In this document: positions 5,950 to 57,352 of the stretch, piece by piece
Layout: the number at the start of each line of letters is the position of its first letter
Numbering within the stretch: position 1 is the stretch's first letter
The notes under the pieces: generated by a model
What the model saw: only the letters and a program-made list of their open reading frames with translations
What the model was told of the DNA's origin: nothing
The model's database searches: none
Translations under genes and position numbers: made by a program
From: the human T2T-CHM13v2.0 reference genome, Homo sapiens
Strand: one strand, 5' to 3'
DNA length: 64,000 nucleotides
Assembly: GCF_009914755.1 (NCBI RefSeq)
Contig: NC_060928.1

Positions 5950-7780
<1,831 letters not shown>

Positions 7781-27839: not shown

Positions 27840-28285
27840 GGATGTAGAGTCTGAATTTGGCTTTTTTGCCTTCAAATTCTGGCCTTGCCACTAATATCCA
27901 TACCAACCTCAGAGAATTGTTTTAAAGGTTAAATGTGAATTTAACTTGCCAAAAAAGTAAGAATTTTACATATAAATAGAAAATGTATGTAAATTATTTA
28001 TACATATATCTATTACACATAGTAATATAGTAATATATTTTATAAATATGTAAAAATGTGTGTATGTATATGTATATGTATAGACACAGACTCACATTTT
28101 CTGTGTGTGTGTTTGTGTGTGTGTATGTGTATGTATCTATCTCTTTCTTTCACTTACTGCTCCACAACTGGAATGCAGAGGTTAGCTCTGTGAGTGCTAT
28201 TTTCATCTGTTCAGTTCACTCCTGAATTCATACCAACTAGAGCAGTGCCTGGCATTGAGTAAATATTTGATGAATCAATGAAGTT
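27840..28285 (+). mobile_element. MIR remnant, TA/TG low-complexity tract and L2 3' end (donor of two duplicated pieces)
   Basis: acctcagagaattgttttaaaggttaaatgtga (MIR); tcagttcactcctgaattcataccaactagagcagtgcctggcattgagtaaatatttgatgaatcaatgaa (L2 terminus). Confidence 0.6.
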
Positions 28286-29194
28286 TCTCTACTTTTTAAA
28301 CTTTCCATTTTAGGATTAGAAAATGTACCTTGAACATTCATATTTATCATGTATTCCAGTTTTTTTGTAATTGATGAATTGAATGTCATTTTTATTTTAT
28401 TTTGCATTTTGGAGATCTTATATATGTGATTGCTTTACAAAGTTTGATTTAAAGCAAAAATTAATTTAACTTTTAATTTTTAATTAAAGCAATCTAGTAC
28501 TCAAACTCAAAACAATTCCATCTAATTCTCAAGACCTAGAGTGAGTTGCAATAATTTCTGGTGCATTGCTTTTTATGTCGCTTTCGAACGATATGGAACT
28601 ATAAAGTAATGAAGCTATGAACATATATTTGCCGGCATTTATTTTTATCCAAAATAAATTACACTTTTTGTCTTTCCTTAGTGCTTTGCTCCTAAATAAT
28701 CACATTGCTCAAAACAATATTTCTAGTAGCTCCTTTTAAAAGATCCCTTTTAGATCAAGTTTCTTAATTACAAAAGAAATTCAGTCGTATTACTTTTTAC
28801 TGATAGAACAGTATCATTTGATATAATACCTTTTCCTGCCCTTCTTGCAGTTTTCTTTTCTATTTTCTTCACCCTCCTGCTCGCCTTTTTCTTTCTGGTG
28901 TTTTCCCTCACACCTGGTTGCCTTCTCATTAGCAGGCTAAGTGGCTCTATGTAAGCCTGTCCTTGGTTGGAGCTGTCTGCTGACTCTCAAGTGTCATAAG
29001 TGGCTGTAATTGAGAAAGGCATTGAGATGTTGAATAGCCAAAGTGTAAATGGAAGACTCTCTGTCCTTACCTATAAAAAGAAAAAGAATCTATAAAGGTA
29101 GCTATACAAAGAAATTGAAAGACACATATAATAGTGTACTTTTGTTTTTGGTCTCAATTTATGTGCAGCCAATACAGACAGTTTCCAATAAACA

Positions 29195-29198
<4 letters not shown>

Positions 29199-29230
<32 letters not shown>
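29199..29230. repeat. (TG)n microsatellite
   Basis: Pure TG run seen directly. Confidence 0.95.
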
Positions 29231-29233
<3 letters not shown>

Positions 29234-31020
29234 AATTAAGAAATGGAAATGATTTGTTTACCCAGTCAGCATTTCATGGCGCGGTTAGGTGTTTGGTTCC
29301 TTAGAGAGGGGTGATACAGATTGAAGAAGCCACAGTCTCTGTTCTCTAGCAATTCATATTGTAGTGTAGCTTTCAACAAAATAGAGAAATGTACAAAGAG
29401 GTATAGGAGTGTCAGGGAAGATAAGATTGGTTTTATCTGTGGTGGAGTGGGTTTGGTAGTATCAGGGAGAACTTTGTGAAATTAGTCATGCTTGGATGTC
29501 AGAATGTATTTCCCAGATGGGAGGGAAAAAAATAAAAGATCTTAAAGGTGATGGTATTGTAGGTAAACCTGTAGAGAACAACCCATGATTGTTTAGATAT
29601 GTAGAACATTTGAAGATGAGATACGCCAGTTCTTCAAAAACCAGGGAAAAAAGTGACAGCCAATAATTATTGAGAGAGCATGCTAGAATGATCATCCAGT
29701 GAAATTTAAGCAGTTGATTAAAAATTTGTTTTTCCTGCCCAAGCAGTCAAGTGTGGCATTCAAGTATGAACTTGAATTGTTCTTGTGGTACAAAAACCTC
29801 ACTAATTGGGCAAATAGAAGTGGACACTCACTCCAAAAGATACAGTGAGTTTCATTGCTTTAATATTTTTTAAGTTCCTGAACAAAATATAACGCTTTTA
29901 TTAGTGAATAGCTTTCACTAATTTGTTTTCATTTTATATCATAGTATATCTTATTTTAATCAATAGTGATTTGGTAAAGTAGAGCTCAACTTTAATTTTA
30001 TGCTATTGACTTTCTGCCCTGTATCTCATTCTTTATCCATTTGGGGGCAAAATTCTAGAATAGATAATGGATTTTGTCACTGTTTAGCATGTATGTAGTT
30101 ACTTAACCTCCTGATTGCATACTAACACTAATAGCATAAATAAATACTAAATATAATAATAATTAACTAATACAAAGAGCTTTGTGTAAAGCTCTTTGTG
30201 TAGTCACAAACTAGTAACTAAAACTAAAGAGCTTTGTGTAAAGCTCTTTAAATAGACATACTAGAACATTCAAAAATTGATATGGCCAGTTGCAAAACCA
30301 TTAGAAAATATTAAATATCTAAAGAAAATACTTTGAACGATAATACTATTTTCTGGGTGTAAAAAGTCTGTTTTATTATTTGTTTAATAAAATTAAAAAA
30401 TTATGGTAATTTAAAGAAAATAAAAACTCAAATGCCTCTATAAATCTTTCATTTAAATAAACTTACATTTCTGTTTATTTCTTTCTATTTTTTAAATCCA
30501 AATTTATTTAGATTATTGTGAATAAATAGATTACAGTATTTGTGTCTGTATACATAAATAAGGGTGTGTGTATGTATATGTGTATGATTAGATGTGCTAA
30601 GGTGCTTCTCAATTTGTTTTCTATGCCTGTTACCTAATGGCAAAAGTGGTAAGACTAATCAATCCCAGTATCTTAGCTTGAAGAGCCTGTGGCAAGAAAT
30701 AGGGACATTTCTTGGAAATAGCAAAATTTATATTAAAAACTGTTATAGTCTTTTAATTAGGAAAAGAAATCTGTAGCTACCAAATCCATCAATTTTCCCA
30801 GTAAACATTATAATAAATTAGATAGTCTAGGAAGATGTGTCATCTGCATCCTAAATTTCCTCTACATACCATAGTTCTGCTGTGAGACCTCAGGCATTGT
30901 GGGAAATAATAGACTTGACAACCAACAGGAAATATTCAAAGCATTCTACAACTGTAACCATAAAACAGAATATTTAATTTTTCTCATAATCAAATTAAAT
31001 ATTTTTTTCTTTTTTTTCAG

Positions 31021-31086
31021 AAATGTTTAATTTGGTAAATTGGAGGAAAAAAACATGGATTTTTAGCAATTGAAGAGCAAATTAAG
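31021..31086 (+). other. ADGRL3: 66-nt non-coding (5'UTR) exon, probably exon 2 of latrophilin-3
   Basis: Strong acceptor atttttttcttttttttcag ending at 31020 and donor aag/GTAATT at 31087; stops in all three frames. Gene assignment rests on my recollection that this sequence precedes gtttcagatttgggatattgg in the LPHN3 5'UTR; needs BLAT. The exon call is firmer than the gene name. Confidence 0.72.
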
Positions 31087-32327
31087 GTAATTAGTAGATT
31101 ATTATTGCCAACCATATAATTTCAAAATTTATTTAAAAATATTTACATTCAAGTTAATATATTATTTTGAGTCTTTATCATATTGAAACATCAGCATATT
31201 TGTAATGTGTTACTAAAATGGAATTTTACATATTTTTGGAAAATAAATTGCCATTTCTTGTTATACATTTTCCAAAAATCATATTTCTTGTGAACAAATT
31301 ATAAGTGATCTAATTAAAAATATTGCTGTTGTGAGGAAATATACTCCAGTTATATGAAAAATAAATGAGCTAAAAATAAGAGTTTTAGTAGGTCTTCACC
31401 TTTTCAGAAAGGCACGTATGTTTTATTACTTTCTTAACTAATGTAGAATAACCATATTGAGTTTTTTTCAGTTGCTACATGTACACTAACACAATGTGTT
31501 AAAGTCATTTTTCTTTAATTCATTCAGTTTTCAATTACATAATTCATAATGTTGAATATAAATATTAGGTAATAAAATATATTCTTTTGGTAGCAACACG
31601 ATGTTTAATATTAAGCAAATTACTTTAAAAATTATGTTATTTATCAGAAATATGTTTATGAAGTCCAGCATTTCAAGCAGTGTAACTTTAAGTCAATATC
31701 CATATTTACATCTTCCCCAGAAAATCATAGAAGGCAAAACAGGCCCACATATTAATCAATCAACAGTTCAATGAGAATTTCCTCTTTTCTTGAAGTTACT
31801 GAAAGTAATTCCTGTAAAGTTACTTTGTAAAGTTTAGCATGTACATTATTATAAATACAGAGCCTAATATTTGAAATATCAACTTTCTTATTGTTCTTCA
31901 TATTAAAATGATTTAAGTTCATTTCATTTTGAATTATTGACATAATTGATATGTACTTTAATTGCTATCATCTATTTTCAAATATTCCGTACTTTTTTCT
32001 GAGCTTTAGGAGTAAAGAGTGACTTAAAACTATAAAAATATTGCACTTGCCTTTCTGTGCACTACGTTTTCCAGTTGATGTTTTGTCTTTTAAATATTTT
32101 TGCTTAATTTCTTTGTCATTGTTTTCTTCCCCCTATTTATTTCTACATGCAAGCAATGTTGTTCCTGTTTTACAGAAGAGATATGATTGAATCTCTTTCA
32201 TTTGGAATTTCTTGTCAGTGTTTTCTTCTTCACACTCAGTCACATTTGCAAACAATTAATATTATTTCCTTCTTTCAGAATAGATGTGATTGACTCTTTC
32301 ATTTATATTTATTAGCTTATTTATATA

Positions 32328-32436
32328 TTATAAAATATACTACTATATTACTATGTGTAATAGATATATGTATAAATAATTTACATACATTTTCTATTTA
32401 TATGTAAAATTCTTACTTTTTTGGCAAGTTAAATTC
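32328..32436 (-). repeat. Inverted copy of 27937-28045 (piece A)
   Basis: Reverse complement matches 108/109; single mismatch at 32340/28033. Confidence 0.97.
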
Positions 32437-32643
32437 CTCAAATCCACTGGTAATATTTATATTCATTTCTATAATTACTACATTGGTTTCTTCAATATAA
32501 AATTAACCCTTCTAGATATATTAACCATGCAAATAACATAGGCAAAATCTTTTTATTTAACGGAAGTTTAAAAACTCAACTGAATCTTTCTCTTTTCTAC
32601 TTTTTTTTAATCAGCACTCCAGTAGAAGCTAATAAACTCTCAG
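32432..32643 (-). repeat. Inverted copy of 47982-48189 (piece C)
   Basis: Reverse complement aligns over ~208 bp with about 8 substitutions and one 4-bp indel. Confidence 0.96.
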
Positions 32644-32980
32644 CCCTAAAGAAATGAAGTAACGATTCATGTTACAACAAGGGTGAAACTTGCAAACATT
32701 ATACTAACTGAAAAAGACACACACAAAAGGCCAAACATATGATTCTATTTATATGGTAGACCCTCAGTGATAGTATGTTAGTGGTTGCCAGAGGGTGGGG
32801 CAAGAGTGGAATGAAAAGTAACTGCTAACGGATACAAGGTTTCCTTTTGGGGAAATAAAAATATTCTGAAAGTAGAGAGCAGTGATAGCTGCACAACTTA
32901 GTGAATATAGTTTAAAAAACAGTGAATTGTATACTTTGAAATGGTAAATTTATGGTATATGAATTATATCTCAATTAAAA
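32641..32980 (+). mobile_element. L1MB-type 3' end fragment
   Basis: cagccctaaagaaatgaagt...ttagtggttgccagaggg...aattgtatactttgaaatgg...tatgaattatatctcaat. Confidence 0.8.
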
Positions 32981-33720
32981 TATTAGAAAACAAACCTGCC
33001 AAACATTTAACGGGGCAACAATCCCTATGATTTCTCCATAAACTTCATATTTGGGACCTGTGGCAGTCATTAAATTAAACATTATTTAGCCGTAATGCTT
33101 TCTGATTTTTCATAAAGAAAGTAAATATGAGGAGATGTTCTGAAATTTTATTCCAACATCCCCCTGAATACTTTTGAACACTCCGGGGGCCTCTAGAATA
33201 GAAAATTAAGCTTTTGTAAGGCAAACATGATACTTCACAGACTGTTCCAAGCCAACTTCGCCTGACTCCTCTCCTAACATTGTCTCACCACATATGTAAT
33301 CCTGCAGCCACAGTGGAAACAGCAATCCTTCAATGGCCACCCCTTGCTCTTTCACAAACTAGTGTGTGGGCCTGGAATGTATAACCTCACCTTCCCTGTC
33401 ACAACAACTCCTCCGTGAATTTCACAGCTTCTCTGAAGGTTTCAGCGCCTCCAGCAGAAGTGAACTGCTCCCACCTTTCTTTCTTCAGCAGTCTGTCAGG
33501 AACTCTCAAAATGTGCACAATAGTATCTGCAGTACTTCATCTTTCTCACTAGTTTTTAATATGTCCACAGCAAACATATCTAAGTTTGTTTGGATTAATT
33601 TTTGTAAAAAGGATGATTGCCTGAGCATGTTTTGTATATTGATTTATTTCACCAACATTAAGTACCAAATAAACTATTATATATTCAACTTTGTAAAAGA
33701 ATGGCTGCCAAATTTAGTTG

Positions 33721-33921
33721 TTTTATAAATATGTAAAAATGTGTGTATGTATATGCATATGTATAGACACAGACTCACATTTTCTGTGTGTGTGTTTGTG
33801 TGTGTGTATGTGTATGTATCTATCTCTTTCTTTCACTTACTGCTCCACAACTGGAATGCAGAGGTTAGCTCTGTGAGTGCTATTTTCATCTGTTCAGTTT
33901 ACTCCTGAATTCATACCAACT
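33721..33921 (+). repeat. Direct copy of 28038-28238 (piece B)
   Basis: 199/201 identity, including identical TG-tract lengths. Confidence 0.97.
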
Positions 33922-34889
33922 GGGATTTTGATGGTGGTGGTTGTTTGAAAGGGTATTTTACTGTACTCGTGTTGCATGTATTTGGTTAAGTGTATTTATG
34001 GAATTACTATCATTTTTAACTAAATGAGTCCTCACATCTAGAAAATCGCTTTTATGTAGCCCTAACGTCAAAATTGGAAAAATGAAGATTATTTTACTAA
34101 TACATGACCAAGGCAACATTAAGAAAATGGCAGCTGATATTTCCCCTAATTCTATTATAGGTTATTTTTCAGTTTCATTATATAACATAAACACTACTCA
34201 GATTTATTAAGGAGCTAGCCAAAAACTTAAAATAATCAAGAAGACTATGAAATATGGATTTGACTCTTAAATTCTAAGTGATTAAACTTGTCCTAAGAAT
34301 ATATTTTGTTTTGAGGTATAAGTTAATGATAGTACACAGCAAAATAAATAGTAAGATTTGTAATAAATTAACATCTAGAACATACATGTAAAACCTCTGG
34401 TTTTGTTCAGCAGGGTTTATACTCATGGTCAATCTAGCAATTTACAAATTTTTACTAAACTTTGTGATAAATCTTTAGAAGCCTTATTGGAGATTTCTTG
34501 CAGGGAAGGAATAAAGTCATTAGAGAAAGTGTAGCTCTTTCTGCTGTGGTAAAAATGGCTGAAATCACATGAGAAAAATATGGCAACAAATAAAAATGTA
34601 TTACTTTATCAGCAAATATTTTTAGAAGATGACATAGAAAACACTGCCTTAATCAGAAAAAATAAGTATTAGAATGGATTATATAATATGAGAAATTCAG
34701 TCTTCATTTGGACAAAATGTATGTATTTCCAATATGTGTCAATTTATATTTGCTAGATTGTATTTTTTAAAGGCTGGTTTATTGATATCTATTTTATATA
34801 TAATGAATTCAGTCCGTGCAACATATGAATGTGTTTTGACAAGCACATAAAGTTGTGAAAATATCACCAAAATCAAGATCTAGAACGTA

Positions 34890-35956
34890 TATAGGGGGAC
34901 CTGCCCCAATAATCACGTAGGTTCTTTTCTATTTTTCCTAAGCGTTGGCCGCCTTGAGAAATAAAGGGACAGAGTACAAAAGAGAGAAATTCTAAAGCTG
35001 GGCATCTGGGGGAGACATCACACGTTGGTAGGACCCGTGATACCCTACAAGCCACAAAAACCAGCAAGTTTTTATTAGGGATTTTCAAAAGGGAAGGGAG
35101 TGTGCGAAGAGGTGTGGGTGACAGACATCAAGTACTTAACAGGGTAATAGAATATCACAAGGCAAGTGGAGGCAGGGCAAGATCACAGGACCACAGGACC
35201 GAGGTGAAGTTAAAATTGCTAATGAAGTTTTGGGCACCATTGTCATTGATAACATCTTATCAGGAGACGAGGTTTTGAGATCAACCGGTCTGACTAAAAT
35301 TTATTAAGTGGGAATTTCCTCTTCATAATAAACCTGGGATCACTATGGGAGACTGGAGTTTATTTCATCTCTGCAGCCTCGACCATAAGAGACGACCACG
35401 CCCCAGGGGGACCAGTTTAGAGACCCACCCCCAGGTGCACATTCTCTTTCTCAGGGATGTTCCATGCTGAGAAAAAGAATTCAGCGATATTTCTCCCATT
35501 TGCTTTTGAAAGAGAAATACAGCTCTGTTCCGCCTGGCTCACCGGTGGTCAGAGTTTAAGTTATCTCTCTTATTCCCTGAGCAATTGCTGTTATCCTGTT
35601 CTTTTTTCAAAGTGCCCAGATTTCATATTGTTTAAACACACATGCTGTACAATTTGTGCAGTTAATGCAATTATTACAGGGTTCTGAGGCAATATACATC
35701 CTCCTCAGCTGACAGGATTAAGAGATTAAAGTAAAGACAGGCATAGGAAATCACAAGGGTATTGATTGGGGAAGTGGTAAGTGTCCATGAAATCTTCACA
35801 ACTTATGTTTAGAGATTGCAGTAAAGACAGGCATAAGAAATTATGAAAGTATTAATTTGGGGAACTAACAAATGTCCATAAAATCTTCACAATCCATGTT
35901 CTTCTGCCATGGTTTCAGCGGGTCCCTCCATTTGGGGTCCCTGACTTCCCACAACA
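34890..35956 (-). mobile_element. MER11 (HERV-K11/HML-8) solo LTR, probably MER11C
   Basis: Minus strand starts tgttgtgggaagtcagggacccc; 1067 bp; perfect 6-bp TSD aacgta at 34884-34889 and 35957-35962. Confidence 0.9.
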
Positions 35957-39678: not shown

Positions 39679-40067
<389 letters not shown>

Positions 40068-40301
40068 AAAATGCTACTTTTATGATATTTTCCTTCCATG
40101 ATATTTTTGTCTTTTCTTTATGAGTTTTGTCTTGTTTCCTATCGTAGATGATGCCAAAACAATTGACCATAGAAATAAGGTTTAACTGTTTTCGGTACTG
40201 GATGGATATTCAGCTGTTTTATTCTAATTAAAGCTCACGTCAAGTGCCCTTCAGAATTTACACGCATAAATGGTTTTCTTTTTACATAGAAAAGAGTCTC
40301 A

Positions 40302-40658
<357 letters not shown>

Positions 40659-43297: not shown

Positions 43298-43937
43298 GCA
43301 CATTGTGCTAATGCTAATTGATAAACAAAGAATAATGAATTAATGGAGTCTTCACCAAACTAACCAGGGTGTTTTGTTGTTATGAGACCATAATTTATTC
43401 ACAAAACTTATACAGATAATTTCTATTAACTTTGCTTTACTGTATTATGTTATTTCAGGTGCTTTCTCAGCTGGCTTATTTTCTAGCTGCAGTTAAAACA
43501 TACTCACTATTATATGTTAATTTTACATGACAAATATAATAAAAACATGAAGGTTTTAATAGGTAATGACCTATTCTGAATTTGTTCAGTAAAATATAAC
43601 AAATTAAAGCTTTCATTGAAAAAAATAGCCAATTATAACCCATTTGAAAGAGACCAGAAAATGATAATATATCAGAAAATGATAAGATATCTGAAAATGT
43701 TTTAACTGGCATGGACTTCAATAAAATACAAGGGAACAAATTTAATATAAAACAATTTGGAAAATTTTGATATGGAGGGGAATAGCTGAACTGTTAATGT
43801 AGAAGGAGGAACGCACAGATTTGTTATCCCACCTGTTGAGAGCGCATTGTGCTAATGCTAATTGACAAACAAGGAATAATGAATGAATGGAGTCTCCACC
43901 AAACTAACCAGGTTGTTTTGTTGTTATGAGACCATAA
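43298..43937 (+). repeat. 96-bp interspersed direct duplication (43298-43393 and 43842-43937)
   Basis: 90/96 identity, no indels. Confidence 0.95.
43655..43700. repeat. 18-bp tandem repeat, ~2.5 copies
   Basis: cagaaaatgataatatat cagaaaatgataagatat ctgaaaatg. Confidence 0.9.
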
Positions 43938-46900
43938 GTTGGGAAAACCACATCTGAATTGAGATCATATTCAAATTGCGTTTACTATAGCCTGTTTTAG
44001 CTAAGGAGGGAAAGGATTTATTTGTAAATTGCTACCTACAGTGTGCTTTTCACCCAAATGCTTGACAGATTTCCCGTACATACATGTCATCTAGTACAAC
44101 ATCCTTTTAGCTTTAGATGTAGCAGAAAGTGAACTTTTAACAAAGTTTAAAATTAATGAAAAACCATTAGATTTTTCTCATTATTTATATTTATGTTTAA
44201 TATATTTAGAATGCAAACTAAGTTATAATGTTGGCCCATTTCTGTCATTACTGATGATAAAGTTTTTAAATTTAAAAAAGAAATTATTTACCTTTGTTGA
44301 TAATGCCATAAATCAGACCAAATTGAGTATTTAAAAAAAAAACTTTTATAGGAATATACATATCAAATTACATAATCACATTTGTGATGTTAATCAGTAA
44401 GGAGAGATTCTTACTTGGTTTACATTGGCTGAATGATTGCCAACTTGATTCAGTCGAACTGAGGTGTTTGGCATTATTTCATTTTAAGGACTTTGACCTC
44501 TAACAACATATTTTACAGTGTAGGTCAAAATGATGAGTAACCAACACAATTTTGACTTTCCCAATCACTACCTTTTCTGTTGCATCAAAGCTTATATCAT
44601 CCAGGAGGGAAATCTTTGTCATTATTATTAATGCATAAAGTAGTAACTATAAATTTACTATAAATCTACTTTTTTTTCCAGCAAATGGATTCATTTATAA
44701 TTCAATGCTAATAACATGTATTTTCATAGTACTTTGGCCTTTTTGAAACTTCTCACATGTAAATGCATATTCAAGTTAACTTCACTGAGTGTCTATTATG
44801 TTCCAGGCAATATGAAACATGCTTTCATGTAATTTACTAAATAATTTGTTAGCCTAGTAAGGAATATATTATTATTATTATTATTATTCCTGCTGAATGA
44901 GACTTTGGTTCAGGAAAATAAAGGTTTATATTTTATTAGTTTTCTAATATGATAAGTATATATTTATACTATAAAATAATACAAAACAATAACAATAGTG
45001 CAGTTTCTAGGACTTCAATATTTTAGCAAATATCATCAAATTTTATGACATTATTTATAATTGTTACCAAATTATATAAAGTTATGTCTTTTAAACCACA
45101 AACTTTTTTTCTTGCAGATTAACATTGCCTCTTTTTCCTGTTGTTAAAACCTTTTCACTTTTTCTCCTCACAAACTTTTTAAATTGCAAATGAATTTCAC
45201 AATCATTCTAGGAAGTAATCCATTTACAGAAAAAGAAATTAAGGAACAAGACAGATGTGACTGAAGCTGAGTCACGCTCCATTTGTGTTCTATCCAGCCT
45301 TAAACACAAATAGTCAAAAAGAAATGAGGCAAGTGTGGGGATGTGGGGTGGGAAATATGAAAGCACATGACCTTCTGTGGTCCTGCTTTTTCAGATTCCT
45401 TCAGGACCCACTTTATTGCCTAGAGAGTTATGAGTTGAAAGCATCTCTTTTAGCTCTCAATTCCTGGTTTGCTCTGTTGTTTATTTCCTCACTTACTTTT
45501 CCACCACATAGCCAGAATACCAGTATTCCTAAGATTCTGGGTGAGAACAATTCTGTGCTTCAGTTTTCTAATTGCTTCATATGAATACCTCTACCAGGAA
45601 GATTTGAGAACCCATAGTATTAGCTAATTTCCTATAAAAAAAATTGTCAGTATTAACTGGCCTTTTCAGGCTGCAAAGGGTATGTTGAACCTCTTATCAC
45701 TAAGAATCATTTCTCCAAAGACAGATTTTAAACTTTAAATGAAAATCTCTATTTCTCTGTCTTTTACTCCCAAGATCACTGGAATGTATAGCTGTTGAAA
45801 ATATAATGGGTAAATAATAAAGTGGTCATTGGAGAGCTATCCATGCTGTAATTTGAACAGGCAAGTAAATCTGGACAGATGCTCTGTTGAAATTTCTGGA
45901 GGGAGCCATTCTTCATATTATTGTAGATGTCTTTATCACACTCACTAGGCTAGACTCTGAGTGATGAAATAATAAAGCGATATTGGTTTTGATGTGTTTT
46001 ACTTTACCTTGTGAACAAAATCATTGAACAATGTCTCACTGAAACTGCAATCCTGAAAGTGTTAATGTTCTTTGTGATATGTTCAAGAATTAAGAATAAG
46101 AAATAGTTGAAAGAAATATGATTAAAGAGTATTTTACTAGAAAGCAGATTTTGAAACTTTAAAAAGAAAAAAATGATGATTTTTACTTTGAATTTGGGTG
46201 AATTGAAAAAAAAATCAATTTTAGTAGACCCTTCATTAAATATCATGGAGTGAGAATGATGAGCCTTCGTAAATGTATTGACAATAAATGACACCACATT
46301 CCAACCTGAAGATTGATTATTCTTTTTTCACTGAGATCAGTTATCTTTTTTTTTTCTTATGTCTATTAATATTTAAGACCTGGCAAGAATTTTGTATTTA
46401 AAATCTTCAGCCAGACCTGATTAGCAAGTTTAATTCATGTTGGTCCTATCTAGCAAACTTAACCTGATGTATTACTTGGTAAAGTAATTACTTCTTTTTT
46501 GCCTTTCCTGTCTTCCCTAGGTTTTGCTGACCATTCCATCCTTTTGGCTTCTTCTCTTTTTTTATCCTCCCACTTCACTTATGGAACCTCTGGTTTACAA
46601 TGTCTTTCACTCTCTCTCTTCTCTCTCTCTCTCTGTCTCTCAATATATTTTACTCCCTTGCCATAGTCTTGAAATAAGAACTGATATATTCAAAGGATCT
46701 TTCAAAATCTAATATCTAATCTGATGTAAGAACATGTAAATAAAGGAATCTTAATTTTTATCTTCCTCTTTCCTCTCCTCTTGTCTTTTATGTGTACTTT
46801 TTCTCCTTCCAAAACTGTGTTTCCTTAACTTCCCACAACCCCCACCAAAACACACACATATATGTGCTTTTTCTTCCATCATTCTGTCTAACTGCAAAGA

Positions 46901-48612
46901 AAAGAATAACTTACTCTTGGGTTACTTGAATTTATTCATATATTCTAATTAGAAATTAAAGTCCTGAATGGACCATTTATAGGACAGGACAATCCTTTAC
47001 TTGTAAGTAGAAAGCATATGGAAATGGAAATTGTTGATGGAATCAGACGTTACTAAAATTATTATTTATTCTGCTGTCAAAATGATGTTTGAAGTAAAAA
47101 TTTTTTATGTCAGTTAATACTCAGATCTTTAGTTAAGGATGTATAATATTTAAATGAAATATGTAAAATGCTCAGGAATGGAGATGATTTTAAAATATCT
47201 TTTACAGTAGGAATTAATATTAATTAGTAAAGTGCACTGCTTATTAATTTAGCCATAACTTTGAAAGTTTACGTTAAGATACATCTTAAAAACAAAATAT
47301 TTTCAGTGTGAAATAAAATTTGAAATGACAATTTATATCAGACAATGATATATAACAAAATTATTAAAACAATCCCAATTTCATCTTTTTAGGTTCATTT
47401 CATTAATTTTCAAGTTCTGTTTTACAAATGGCATGTGTGCATATTCAAGGTAATTAGGTTTGTAAATAAAAGTAGAAGATGTCAACAAATAGTAAGAGAA
47501 ATGTCACTCTTCCATAGTGAATAATTTAAAAATGTTAAATCAACATCTAAAACTGCTAGTACTGGTTCTACTGCAAAGATACCCCTTAAGCTTCATGGAC
47601 CTCAATTTCTACTCTAAAAATTGAGAGTGTTGGACTTAATGACTAAATTATCCACTGAACTCTAAATGTTTAATATTTAAAATCTTCCCTCTTGCTCTAT
47701 AAACTTAACCTGCTTTCTTTGGGATTTTAGGAATGAGAAGGAATGTCATTTGTATTTGCTCTTATAGATGTTAAGGTAGACAAGAAACTCAGTTGGAATG
47801 ACAGAGTATAATTTCTACATTTAAAATGTTGTGTTGACTAATGCAATTAATTTGTACTCAGTTATAAGTAGAGGCGATGAGTACCAAGGCATATGATCAG
47901 TGCAAGTATACCCCTGAGACAATATAATTTTCAGGGAATCAAAATAATCAGCAAGAGAGCATATATTTCCTTAATGGAGTACTGAGAGTTTATTAGCTTC
48001 TACTGGAGTGCTGATTAAGAAAAAGGAGAAAAGAGGTTCAGTTGAGTTTTTAAACTGCAGTTAAATAAAAAGATTTTGCCTATGTTATTTGCATGGTTAA
48101 TGTATCTAGAAGGGTTAATTTTATATTGAAGAAACAAGTGTAGTAATTATAGAAATGAATATAAATATTACCAGTGGATTTGAGGAATTAAAATGTCACA
48201 GTTTCATTTATTACTTTACTATATCAGACCTGTGTTAAAAAGTTTTGCTCCAGTTGAACAAACGAGTAAAATAAATATAGGAAAAAATACCCCAAAAACT
48301 TTTACGGTATATAAAAAGAAGAAAAGCGATGTACTTTTTATTTTCTAGAGGTGATGAAAAGTGAACTAGAAATAATTCCTCTGTTAAACCAGGCATCTTG
48401 TAAAAGAGAACCATCACTATATATTGTTCCTGGGATTCCCTGTGAATAACTGGCAATGTGAGGCTATAGTAGTCACAGCTCTTTATTCCTTCCAAACCAG
48501 TTATTGTGCTGCTAATTAGAATTGGATATTGGTGGTAGTGGAAATGGGGAAAACTATCAATGTTACTTTGTGTTAAATTTTAATCACACAAGTTAGGACA
48601 TTCAGAATTATG

Positions 48613-54190: not shown

Positions 54191-57089
54191 TTCCATCTAT
54201 TTGGCTGTAGTGTAGTGTAACTTTTGACCCTACCTGTAAAAAAAAGTTGGGTGTTAAATTTCGTAGGTTAAATGACTTAATTCTCATAATTAATGAGGGA
54301 GTACATATTGCTTATATAAATTAATAATACATTTTATAGATGCTATATATTATTAAAGTAGATAAGTTACTATTTTATCAGTATGTCTTTCTCCATTGAA
54401 CATGCAGATTTTTTTTGGTGTCTAATGTTGTTTTTACTGTCTCTGTATTGATAATGCATTTTAATAAAAAACTAAGTGGGATGTTATGTCATTCCTGGGC
54501 TTATATTATTTTAAATTTAACTTTTTTCCTTTTATTTATTAAAAAATACTAGGATATATATGTGGTTAATAAATCATTGGAGTTATTAAACATTTGAAAT
54601 ATTCCACATTCGTGTTTGGAGAGGCAAGGGTAGCTCAGATATTTTAACTGTAATGTGTTTGTACAAGAAAAATATTCTGTACAACTTATTCAGCATGCCA
54701 GGTTGGTAAAAATATAAAACACTGTTAGTATTGTTCTTTAATAGGTGAGCTTATCTCCTATAATGGCTAAATGATGTCATTGGAATTTGCTTCAGCTAAT
54801 AACAGTATGCTACATACTACAAATCATTCCATGGAACCAACTGTCATAAATGAGAGTGTAAGGTTTTATATTTCAACTAAGGTTAGAAATAACAAAATAA
54901 AATATTATGGATACGATTAACTTAGTCTGATTTGTATAGGTCTTATTGCATTCCTAAGGCATTCTAAGTTAGGCAAATAATTATACAAATAATTCAGCAG
55001 GATGTCTGTAATTGGTTTCAGTGATAAAATTTATATTCAGTGCCTAAATCTGAAACAATAAACCCTTACAATAATTTATTATAATTTTGCAGATTTCATA
55101 ATAGAGATAATTTGAGGTTTTTTTGTAACTGGAAGTCAAGATTGCAGCCGCATGAAAAAACTGCATTAAAATTATACTAAAGTAAGGTGTTTAAAAAATA
55201 ACTTGCTTTGTTATTACAGAAGTAGATAGGTCATTAGTCTTCACATATTAGTTTTCTTTTTTCTCAAAATATATAATGAAAAAATAGTCTCTGCCTTTTA
55301 AAACTTAAATAAAGTCTGAAAGTATAATACAATAAATAGTCCCTTAATTTCATTTCTTTATATCTTATGAAGCCTTCAAACTTCAATGTTGGTGGTTCTC
55401 ACAAATTTTCTGTATTCACAACATGCTGATGGTGTCACAGAGGTGTCCACAAAAAACTGAAGAAAACAACCAGCTGTGTAAACCAATTTTTAGTTTAACT
55501 TGCATCGTTTTACCTGCCAAACAAAGCTCTGCAGTAACAGATTCTCTGTCATCATTGAAGAACAACTTGAAGGGTTAGAAAAAGGCAATAGAGATTCAAA
55601 TCCCAAGAGACGAGGGAGACTGCATTAGCTCATATGAAATGTACATACTTTACCATTAATTTTACAAACACATGCATTTAAAGCTATAAAAACACTTTTG
55701 GCTTGCATTCTCAAGTATGTATGTACTCTCTAAATGAATGAATTCACTAGAGAATGAATGAATACATGACTGAATGGAGAAGTAAATACAGGGATCCTTT
55801 ATAAATCCTGAACTCAAAATTATAAATTGGTTTTCCATAACAAACATTTTGTAGATTATCGTTATGAGGAATGCATCTGGAAAAACAGCTATCTAAATAC
55901 ATATGTTAGTAACTCTATATTACGTCATTTCTGAAATGAGAAATTGGGGCTTCTGGCAGGGGCTGGGATTGTGGAGCCACGCGAGGGAAGAGGAAAGGAA
56001 ATAAGAGAAAAACAAATTAAAATGAAGGAACCCAGTACTATTTATAAGATGGATCTAAGGCTGTCAGGGAAATCTCACCAGAATTTAAACTTCTGCAAGG
56101 TTTTTTTTAAAGATCACATAAAATTGACTATTTAAACTCTTCTGTATGTTTTCTTTTTGTTAAAGATTTTCCTTCCCTTGGTCCTCAATGAATTCCAAAT
56201 GCATTGAGCTTATTAGCTTGGTTCTTACCTCTCTTGCTGAGCCCCTGTTGGCCAGTGGGAAGGCTATTTTAAACTACTGACCCTGCACCTGGGTATTTGC
56301 AGCCCATGGGGGTATTAGCTGCTGTCCTTTTTTTTTTTTTCCTGCTCTGCTCCCTTTTAAAGACTTGCTTTGTTGCCGACTATACAGAGATTACTTTGAT
56401 CGTTCCCTGCTTATGAGAATAGATTTCCTTAAGCCCTACATGTATTTTCCAGTTCTTATTGGTATGAAGAACTGGCTGGACTGTAGCCTGGTTTTCTGTC
56501 TTAAGCCTTGTGAAAATGTCCCCTACTTACCAATATTTAAATTGGAAATAAATTATTTAATCTAGATTATTTAATTATTTATACAGAGTACAAAAGAATC
56601 AGTAATGATACATTTTAAAGCTCTTAAAATTAATATGCATGGTTTTAGACTAAGATTCAAATATAAATTGAGTTATAACCTGATTTTTTTTCTTGGAAGT
56701 GAGAAAACACTGAGTTTGGATGATGCTAAAGTATTTGTGTTGCCTCTTGCTAAGTCTAACATACTTTCAAACTTATTTCTAAGAGTGTTTAAATCCTTTT
56801 TGTGGATTAATTTCAAATAAGCATCAGAAATAAAGCTGTTGATTCTTTAGATTAAATATATTGGCTTTAAAGTTTTATGCAGTCTCTGCATTAATTTTGT
56901 ATTCCTGACCCTTAATGTGTCATCAAAAACAATCATTTTAGCTATGAGTTACAATACTTGCATATTCTGCCCCAGGACTATCTCTGCCTGACTCATTAAC
57001 TTGCTTTTCAAGTTACATTTTAAATAAAAGCCAAGATATGCTTTGAGGACAAGAAAGTCACCAAAAAAATCCCAGTTAGTTGAAAAATT

Positions 57090-57352
57090 TTATTATATAT
57101 ATAATATATATTATATATATTAGACATACATAATATATATTATATATATTAGACATACATAATATATATTATATATTAGACATACATAATATATATTATA
57201 TATATTAGACATCCATTATATATAATATATATTAGACATATATATTAGACATATATAATAGATATATAATATATTATATATATATTAGACATATATTATA
57301 TATATATTAGACATACATAATATATATATATATATATTATATATATGTCTAT
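57090..57352. repeat. AT-rich minisatellite with ~27-29 bp unit (tatattagacatacataatatatatta)
   Basis: About eight tagacat cores separated by (TA)n, ending with an inverted atgtcta. Confidence 0.9.

What the first reader, a model, noticed from the sequence alone, without database searches (positions are those of the whole stretch)
27937..32436. Near-perfect 109-nt inverted repeat brackets the uORF-bearing exon
Seen: donor A lies ~3 kb upstream and its inverted copy ~1.2 kb downstream of exon 31021-31086, so pre-mRNA could form a 108/109 duplex looping out the exon. The adjoining arm C could pair at the same time with 47982-48189, giving a branched long-range structure. Established: complementary intronic flanks can promote exon skipping, back-splicing and ADAR editing. 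Inference: a young non-Alu rearrangement may tune inclusion of an exon carrying two uAUGs and hence translation of the host receptor. The arms are very AU-rich, so stability is modest.
Basis: partly seen in the sequence, partly recalled or inferred. Interest (0 to 1): 0.7.

Follow-up and report, generated by a model that had tools for sequence, protein, structure and literature searches.

The report
Copy-paste DNA scar around ADGRL3 exon
Three short stretches of nearby DNA sit as copies in an intron of the human brain gene ADGRL3, likely left by a DNA-copying accident in ape ancestors; one copy is a mirror image that is predicted to fold the RNA around a small exon, but this likely changes little.

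Summary
The inverted repeat is real: 27937-28045 and 32328-32436 match at 108 of 109 bases, 4,282 nt apart, around the 66-nt 5'UTR exon 2 of ADGRL3. A and B share 8 nt at the donor. An old repeat is whole at the donor and cut at the copy, which fixes the direction for B. This fits a microhomology template-switch rearrangement, probably a small inversion with templated inserts, 1-4% diverged (ape age). The predicted duplex is strong (about -120 kcal/mol net), not modest. But the arms are far apart (Alu editing at this distance falls to background), the flanking introns are about 181 and 114 kb, and the exon supplies only 2 of 11 uAUGs. A minor skipping effect is possible (a 4.2-kb Alu pair in TBXT is linked to one) but untested. 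Verdict: new member of a known kind, likely neutral.

The parts
27937..28045 (+). Arm A, donor of the inverted copy (16% GC)
28038..28238 (+). Block B, donor of the direct copy; adjoins A
28038..28045 (+). 8-nt overlap of A and B, present at both the M/A' junction and the Y/B' junction; inferred shared microhomology or staggered break
28176..28285 (+). Old dispersed repeat (L2-like 3' end, name recalled) that runs across the right edge of B at the donor but is cut at the copy
   Evidence: chr11 copy L014 aligns over 28176-28285 with score 97 at the donor, at most 32 at the copy
28080..29844 (+). Annotated exon of other transcripts, apparently a first exon; starts inside donor B, downstream of arm A
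   Evidence: hub annotation; GT donor after 29844, no AG before 28080; XM_017007930.1 start, 0.4% of brain ADGRL3 TPM
31021..31086 (+). ADGRL3 5'UTR exon 2, 66 nt, with uORFs at 31023-31073 (16 codons) and 31055-31066 (3 codons)
   Evidence: hub annotation
32328..32436 (-). A', inverted copy of A, 108 of 109
32429..32643 (-). C', inverted copy of 47982-48192; 8 substitutions in 208 columns plus a 4-nt indel; 5-nt exact overlap with A'
32592..32614 (+). Acceptor-like pyrimidine tract and AG created by the inverted orientation of C' (possible cryptic 3' splice site; untested)
   Evidence: 25 such sites in the 64-kb window, so not rare
32640..32984 (+). Old L1-like 3' end (L1M type, name recalled), cut at the C' junction; carries poly(A)-signal hexamers at 32854 and 32974
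   Evidence: 41 other matches include 38 to this part; profile match starts at position 489 of 858
32644..33720 (.). Block Y, 1,077 nt, single-copy apart from the L1-like part; probably inverted relative to the ancestor (inferred, not shown)
33721..33921 (+). B', direct copy of B, 199 of 201; the derived copy
47982..48192 (+). Block C, presumed donor of C', 15.3 kb downstream in the same intron

Best explanation
The 109-nt inverted repeat is one of three local copies inside a 1.6-kb mosaic in ADGRL3 intron 2, likely left by a microhomology-driven template-switch accident in an ape ancestor and likely close to neutral for the exon it brackets. Shown: the order M - inverted A - inverted C - Y - direct B - R, the junction overlaps, and that B' is the copy. 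Inferred: the polymerase left M at an 8-nt match to 28038-28045, copied A and then C on the opposite strand, copied Y in reverse back to the same 8-mer, switched to B and rejoined at R, so Y is probably a 1.08-kb inversion (about 55%) and the whole may be one event (about 60%). Predicted: nascent RNA can pair A with A', but only in a small share of molecules or briefly, with little effect on exon 2 inclusion.
For: Mosaic and identities. All three templates are local and found nowhere else among the genome matches. The same 8-mer closes both junctions that change strand in the inversion model, and 5 nt overlap at A'/C'. Old repeat whole at donor B and cut at B'. L1-like element cut within about 4 nt of the C' end. 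The 4 other L1-like hits in the window lie on the minus strand and this one on plus (weak). Divergence 3 of 310 for A+B, 8 of 208 for C, pooled 2.1% (95% CI 1.1-3.8). The class is common: 54% of sequenced human inversion sites were inverted duplications, nearly all under 1 kb and within 5 kb (PMC4617611 passage); 18 of 45 inversions carry indels ascribed to one FoSTeS/MMBIR event (PMC6748972 passage). For neutrality: distance, introns of about 181 and 114 kb, 2 of 11 uAUGs.
Against: No ape or second human sequence could be aligned, so ancestral order and age are inferred. C is more diverged than A+B (Fisher p = 0.03), which favours two events. The test for an old repeat across the rebuilt M/inverted-Y junction was negative; base skew was uninformative; the missing upstream L1 part was not found next to R or at 7 other candidate flanks (one, 28239-28438 reversed, reached 2 of 60 shuffles). 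The direction of copying is shown for B only, not for A or C. Against neutrality: the duplex is very stable, it is the only close pair around this exon, enrichment of inverted Alu pairs at skippable exons holds out to 5-kb windows (PMC13019027 section 20), and two assembled transcript models end inside Y.
Confidence: 0.6

Rival explanations
1. Same origin, but the A/A' duplex is functional: it forms on nascent RNA, loops out exon 2 and measurably lowers its inclusion, changing the uORF load of the ADGRL3 5'UTR.
For: Net -120 kcal/mol, loop cost about 13. TBXT minor skip product attributed to a 4,188-bp pair; engineered Alu-independent arms caused skipping. Deleting an Alu arm reduced skipping in 7 of 8 minigenes, by about 1 to over 40 points (PMC13019944 passages). 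Short exons are more often skippable.
Against: Editing, a proxy for pairing, decays over about 800 bp and is weaker across exon-intron borders. Only 7.9% of captured duplexes spanned one exon against 78.9% within one intron. Skippable exons with inverted pairs tend to have short downstream introns; this one is about 114 kb. 9 uAUGs remain after skipping. No report of exon 2 skipping found in the searches.
Confidence: 0.14
2. No inversion and not one event: C' was inserted earlier next to the L1 remnant, and later a staggered break at 28038-28045 on a sister chromatid gave two fragments (A end, B end) that were captured on either side of the block by end joining.
For: C is about four times more diverged than A+B (p = 0.03). 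A staggered cut also explains the 8-nt overlap. The M end has its own 8-of-9 match to the donor just beyond the 8-mer. No human-chimpanzee inversion at chr4 60-64 Mb among the 13 rows starting 'chr4 6' in Feuk 2005 Table S1.
Against: Needs the later breakpoint to fall at the end of C'. The confidence intervals of the two divergences overlap at 1.7-2.8%, and several C differences are clustered. Absence from the Feuk table is also expected if the event predates the human-chimpanzee split.
Confidence: 0.2
3. The consequence, if any, is at the 3' end, not in a duplex: inverted C' supplies an acceptor at 32614 and Y supplies sense poly(A) signals, making a cryptic terminal exon that ends some ADGRL3 transcripts before the coding region.
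For: Acceptor-like site with 17 of 20 pyrimidines, as many as the exon 2 acceptor. Hexamers at 32631, 32854, 32974, 33668. Two StringTie models end at about window 32941 (9.4% of ADGRL3 TPM in one brain set) and 33652 (2.5%) (PMC11039983 Table S5 rows).
Against: Such acceptor-like sites occur 25 times in the window and AATAAA 1.6 times per kb. Both model ends fall upstream of the nearest following hexamer, not after it. The assembly used minimal thresholds, the same model is only 0.4-0.5% in two other brain sets, and duplicated arms disturb read mapping, so intronic-coverage artefacts are likely. Exon structures of the models were not in the table.
Confidence: 0.06

Closest known systems
'Inverted Dup' and complex inversion classes of the 1000 Genomes SV map (Sudmant 2015, PMC4617611)
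   Same: Duplicated stretch under 1 kb inserted inverted within 5 kb of its source; local templates; microhomology at template boundaries (passages).
   Different: Those are polymorphic against the reference; this one is in the reference itself, is 1-4% diverged and has three templates and five junctions.
FoSTeS/MMBIR non-homologous inversions with small insertions or deletions (Giner-Delgado 2019, PMC6748972)
   Same: Small inversion with indels in the derived allele, ascribed to one replication event (passage).
   Different: The inversion here is inferred, not shown by an outgroup; C may be older than A and B.
Tandem short template (TST) jumps (Umbreit 2020, PMC7347108)
   Same: Tandem inserts of about 200 bp within a junction (109, about 210 and 201 nt here).
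   Different: Described in chromosome-bridge and cancer genomes, with longer chains and few clear microhomologies (passages); this is a germline, short chain.
TBXT AluY/AluSx1 loop-out exon skipping (Xia 2024, PMC10901737) and genome-wide inverted Alu pairs (PMC13019944, PMC13019027)
   Same: Lineage-young inverted pair in the two introns around an exon; spacing equals that of the minor TBXT pair (4,188 bp).
   Different: Arms are unique AU-rich DNA of 109 nt, not Alu; main TBXT pair is 1,448 bp apart; exon is non-coding; flanking introns are over 100 kb; no skipping shown.

Membership tests
Inverted duplication / complex inversion SV | Inverted copy under 1 kb within 5 kb of its source | tested here: met
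   109 nt, 4,282 nt apart; definition
Inverted duplication / complex inversion SV | An allele or outgroup without the copies exists | not testable with these tools
   No relatives held. Distance from 28080 to exon 3 is 116,866 in this genome and 116,862 between two transcript starts in a GRCh38 table, so GRCh38 probably has the same allele
FoSTeS/MMBIR templated insertion | Inserted pieces are copies of nearby DNA | tested here: met
   Templates 4, 6 and 15 kb away, no other genomic copy among the matches
FoSTeS/MMBIR templated insertion | Microhomology at the junctions | tested here: inconclusive
   5 nt shown at A'/C'; 8 nt at M/A' and Y/B' and about 4 nt at C'/Y depend on the inferred ancestor; B'/R cannot be judged
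FoSTeS/MMBIR templated insertion | All junctions made in one event | tested here: inconclusive
   3 of 310 against 8 of 208 differences, p = 0.03, intervals overlap
FoSTeS/MMBIR inversion | Middle block reversed relative to ancestor | tested here: inconclusive
   8-mer geometry and L1 strand favour it; junction-spanning repeat test negative; skew uninformative
TST jumps | Chains of about 200-bp inserts from breakpoint hotspots after bridge breakage | tested here: inconclusive
   Sizes fit; chain is only two plus one and the cellular context cannot be tested
Loop-out exon skipping by inverted repeats | Inverted arms in both flanking introns able to form a stable duplex | tested here: met
   (prediction only)
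Loop-out exon skipping by inverted repeats | Arms are Alu elements (for the Alu class) | tested here: not met
   Arms have no other genomic match and lie outside the masked list given by the hub
Loop-out exon skipping by inverted repeats | A skipped isoform exists and depends on both arms | not testable with these tools
   No RNA reads; the transcript table seen has no exon structures
ADAR-edited intronic duplex | Arms within about 2-3.5 kb so that editing exceeds background | tested here: not met
   4,282 nt gives 0.014% over a 0.25% floor by the Alu equation; an average for Alu, not a hard limit
ADAR-edited intronic duplex | Observed A-to-I sites in the arms | not testable with these tools
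   No editing data on hand; 28033 is an A:C mismatch and the first site to check
Back-splicing flanks (circRNA) | Circular junction reads of the bracketed exon | not tested
   66 nt is short for a single-exon circle (recalled); listing showed nothing on this exon

The most novel reading that the evidence does not exclude
A single ape-lineage template-switch event gave ADGRL3 a transposon-free, near-perfect 108-bp RNA clamp around its last uORF-bearing 5'UTR exon, plus a cryptic acceptor and sense poly(A) signals, and so changed how much of this synaptic receptor ape brains make: a natural non-Alu counterpart of the TBXT tail-loss switch.
Probability: 0.12. Interest if true: 0.7.

Novelty: new member of a known kind. 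Interest (0 to 1): 0.3.

Why it matters
As it most likely stands, it is a clean, readable fossil of a five-junction templated rearrangement fixed or common in the human genome, and a warning that the duplicated arms may distort read mapping and gene models here. If the duplex does act, it would show that replication accidents, not only Alu insertions, create exon-looping RNA structures in ape brain genes, and the locus offers a direct test because the arms are unique sequence that can be mapped and deleted.

Tried and rejected
1) Chance or low-complexity match: rejected. 2) Known RNA family: 0 Rfam matches in 27000-49000. 3) Transposon arms: rejected; A, B and C had no other genomic copies among the matches, though that search skips simple and very common words. 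4) Old SINE across the rebuilt M/inverted-Y junction: a profile from 30 genomic copies found 8 hits in the window but nothing across any of 4 candidate junctions. 5) Upstream half of the cut L1-like element next to R or 7 other flanks: not found. 6) Strand skew as an orientation test: GC skew of Y is matched by 4 of 119 tiles as it stands and 9 of 119 if reversed; TA skew no better. 7) Hairpin at the A/B donor site as trigger: z -0.5 and -1.0, no support. 8) Sensitive searches with M end, Y end and R found only themselves. 9) Published record of this variant: none in the listings; none in Feuk 2005 Table S1 or in the supplements of PMC13019944 and PMC13721702. The ape T2T paper's supplement could not be read, a great-ape structural variant paper was not held, and variant databases were not available, so this does not show that it is unrecorded. 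10) A wider background count of such duplications along the gene was not obtained; only the 64-kb window was counted (4 pairs at 90% or more over 70 nt, 3 of them from this mosaic).
Full report
Observation. 27937-28045 and 32328-32436 are complementary at 108 of 109 positions, with E 6e-51 and a score of 196 against at most 42.8 in 30 shuffles. The annotated exon 31021-31086 lies between, 2,975 nt after A and 1,241 nt before A'. It holds AUGs at 31023 and 31055, giving uORFs of 16 and 3 codons. Arm C is also real: 32429-32643 against 47982-48192, 94%.

Anatomy. Self-alignment shows a mosaic at 32328-33921: M | inverted A | inverted C | Y | direct B | R. B is 28038-28238, the direct neighbour of A, copied at 199 of 201. 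A genome search with the mosaic returned 42 matches: itself, the three local donors and 38 matches to an old dispersed repeat at 32640-32990 (only 40 of 2,203 candidates were scored). The rest of Y is single copy. Family names used here (L1M, L2, MIR, MER11-type LTR) are recalled from sequence appearance and come from no call.

Direction. A chr11 copy of an old repeat aligns over 28176-28285, across the right edge of B, with score 97; the same test at the 33.9-kb copy scores at most 32. So B' is derived. A profile from 6 genomic L1-like copies matches Y from position 489 of 858, starting at 32640, within about 4 nt of the end of C', while another copy in the window covers positions 8-693. So the C'/Y border cuts an old element, which points to C' as the insert, although natural 5' truncation cannot be excluded. 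The direction for A follows from its contiguity with B and is not shown separately.

Mechanism. A and B overlap by 8 nt at the donor (28038-28045), and that 8-mer closes both the M/A' and the Y/B' junction. If the ancestor read M - 8-mer - reversed Y - R, these are the two reciprocal junctions of a strand switch at one inverted microhomology, and the path needs only two changes of strand: A, C and Y copied on the opposite strand, B and R on the original. A'/C' shows 5 exact shared bases. This is inference. Three tests of the orientation of Y did not settle it: no SINE profile match across any of 4 rebuilt junctions, skew uninformative, upstream L1 part not found at 8 candidate flanks. The 4 other L1-like hits in the window, one of them weak (E 0.018), are antisense and Y's is sense, a weak point in favour. 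A staggered break with fragment capture explains the overlap as well and remains a rival.

Age. A+B differ at 3 of 310 sites (0.97%, 95% CI 0.2-2.8), C at 8 of 208 plus a 4-nt indel (3.9%, CI 1.7-7.6), pooled 2.1%; Fisher p = 0.03. With human-chimpanzee divergence near 1.2% and human-orangutan near 3% (recalled), this is ape age, not clearly human-specific. Feuk 2005 Table S1 (supplement searched, main text not read) has 13 rows beginning 'chr4 6', all at 65.1 or 69.9-70.0 Mb, none at 60-64 Mb where I place the locus from recalled coordinates. A GRCh38 transcript table gives the same distance across the region to within about 100 nt, assuming the two starts correspond, so the allele is probably not private to this assembly.

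RNA. The A duplex folds at -144.5 kcal/mol, net -120.4, or -104 with 150 nt of context; loop closure costs about 13. C folds at net -259, and both form together. For Alu pairs, editing follows 2.9 exp(-d/800) + 0.25% and is weaker across exon-intron borders (PMC4066801, passages), giving 0.014% above the floor here. In K562 chromatin RNA 78.9% of captured duplexes lay within one intron and 7.9% spanned one exon; 4.69% of predicted exon-straddling inverted repeats were neither Alu nor L1 (PMC13019944, first part of results and passages), so non-Alu pairs are a known minority. Inverted Alu pairs are enriched at skippable exons out to 5-kb windows, with short downstream introns (PMC13019027, section 20 and passages). 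TBXT has its main pair at 1,448 bp and a minor product attributed to a 4,188-bp pair, and engineered non-Alu arms work (PMC10901737, passages). A minor effect here is therefore possible. The introns are about 181 and 114 kb (the end of exon 1 was inferred from a donor motif), so the hairpin hardly brings exons 1 and 3 together.

Translation. The selected 5'UTR, 1,679 nt as assembled, has 11 uAUGs: 9 in exon 1, 2 in exon 2, none in exon 3. Skipping removes the two nearest the start but lengthens the last exon 1 uORF so that it stops at -114 instead of -186. The sign of any effect is open. Transcripts that start at 28080 or later do not contain arm A. The mouse Lphn3 splicing preprint (10.1101/2023.10.02.560463, passages) names five sites of alternative splicing and focuses on the coding region, so it does not bear on this exon.

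A side lead. In PMC11039983 Table S5 (rows seen; exon structures not given) two assembled models end at about window 32941 and 33652, inside Y, at 9.4% and 2.5% of ADGRL3 TPM in one brain set but 0.4-0.5% and 1.0-2.3% in two others. C' brings an acceptor-like site at 32614 and Y carries poly(A) hexamers. The assembly was permissive, such motifs are common in this AT-rich intron, and both ends precede the next hexamer, so I rate a real terminal exon at about 6%.

Comparison and novelty. It works like the inverted-duplication and complex-inversion classes of PMC4617611 (passages) and the FoSTeS/MMBIR inversions of PMC6748972 (passages); insert sizes recall TST jumps (PMC7347108, passages). It is not an Alu pair, and membership among functional loop-out elements could not be tested. 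No description of this locus appeared in the listings or in the supplements searched; the ape T2T supplement was unreadable (outline only) and may bear on age and prior description. Verdict: real feature, new member of a known kind, likely neutral; interest 0.3, with about a 12% chance of a reading worth 0.7.

Noticed in passing
window 28080-29844: The annotated alternative exon starts inside duplicated donor B, where reads map to two places; its 5' end may be a mapping artefact. Several low-level assembled transcripts start at about 28403-29828.
   Followed up: partly
window 32941 and 33652 (approximate): Ends of two assembled ADGRL3 transcript models inside block Y.
   Followed up: partly
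window 32106-32304: Old tandem duplication of about 100 nt, 71% identical, ending 23 nt before the M/A' junction.
   Followed up: partly
window 43298-43396 and 43842-43940: 99-nt direct duplication, 93% identical, 544 nt apart; another local copy event.
   Followed up: no
window 6136-6211 and 7186-7261: 76-nt direct duplication, 89% identical, 1,050 nt apart.
   Followed up: no
window 34879-35955: The RefSeq enhancer coincides with an LTR-like element (MER11 type, recalled) with an internal 90-nt tandem duplication; it may interrupt an older L1-like end at 34778-34888.
   Followed up: no
window 57065-57334: AT-rich tandem array that is also self-complementary.
   Followed up: no
window 30174-30250: Short repeated motif with small palindromic elements, about 870 nt upstream of exon 2.
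   Followed up: no
window 39742-40620: Inverted Alu-like pair only 231 nt apart, net -286 kcal/mol; a far better editing candidate than the A arms.
   Followed up: no
L050:2264-3703: ADGRL3 exon 1 is 1,440 nt of 5'UTR with 9 uAUGs, one opening a 142-codon uORF.
   Followed up: partly
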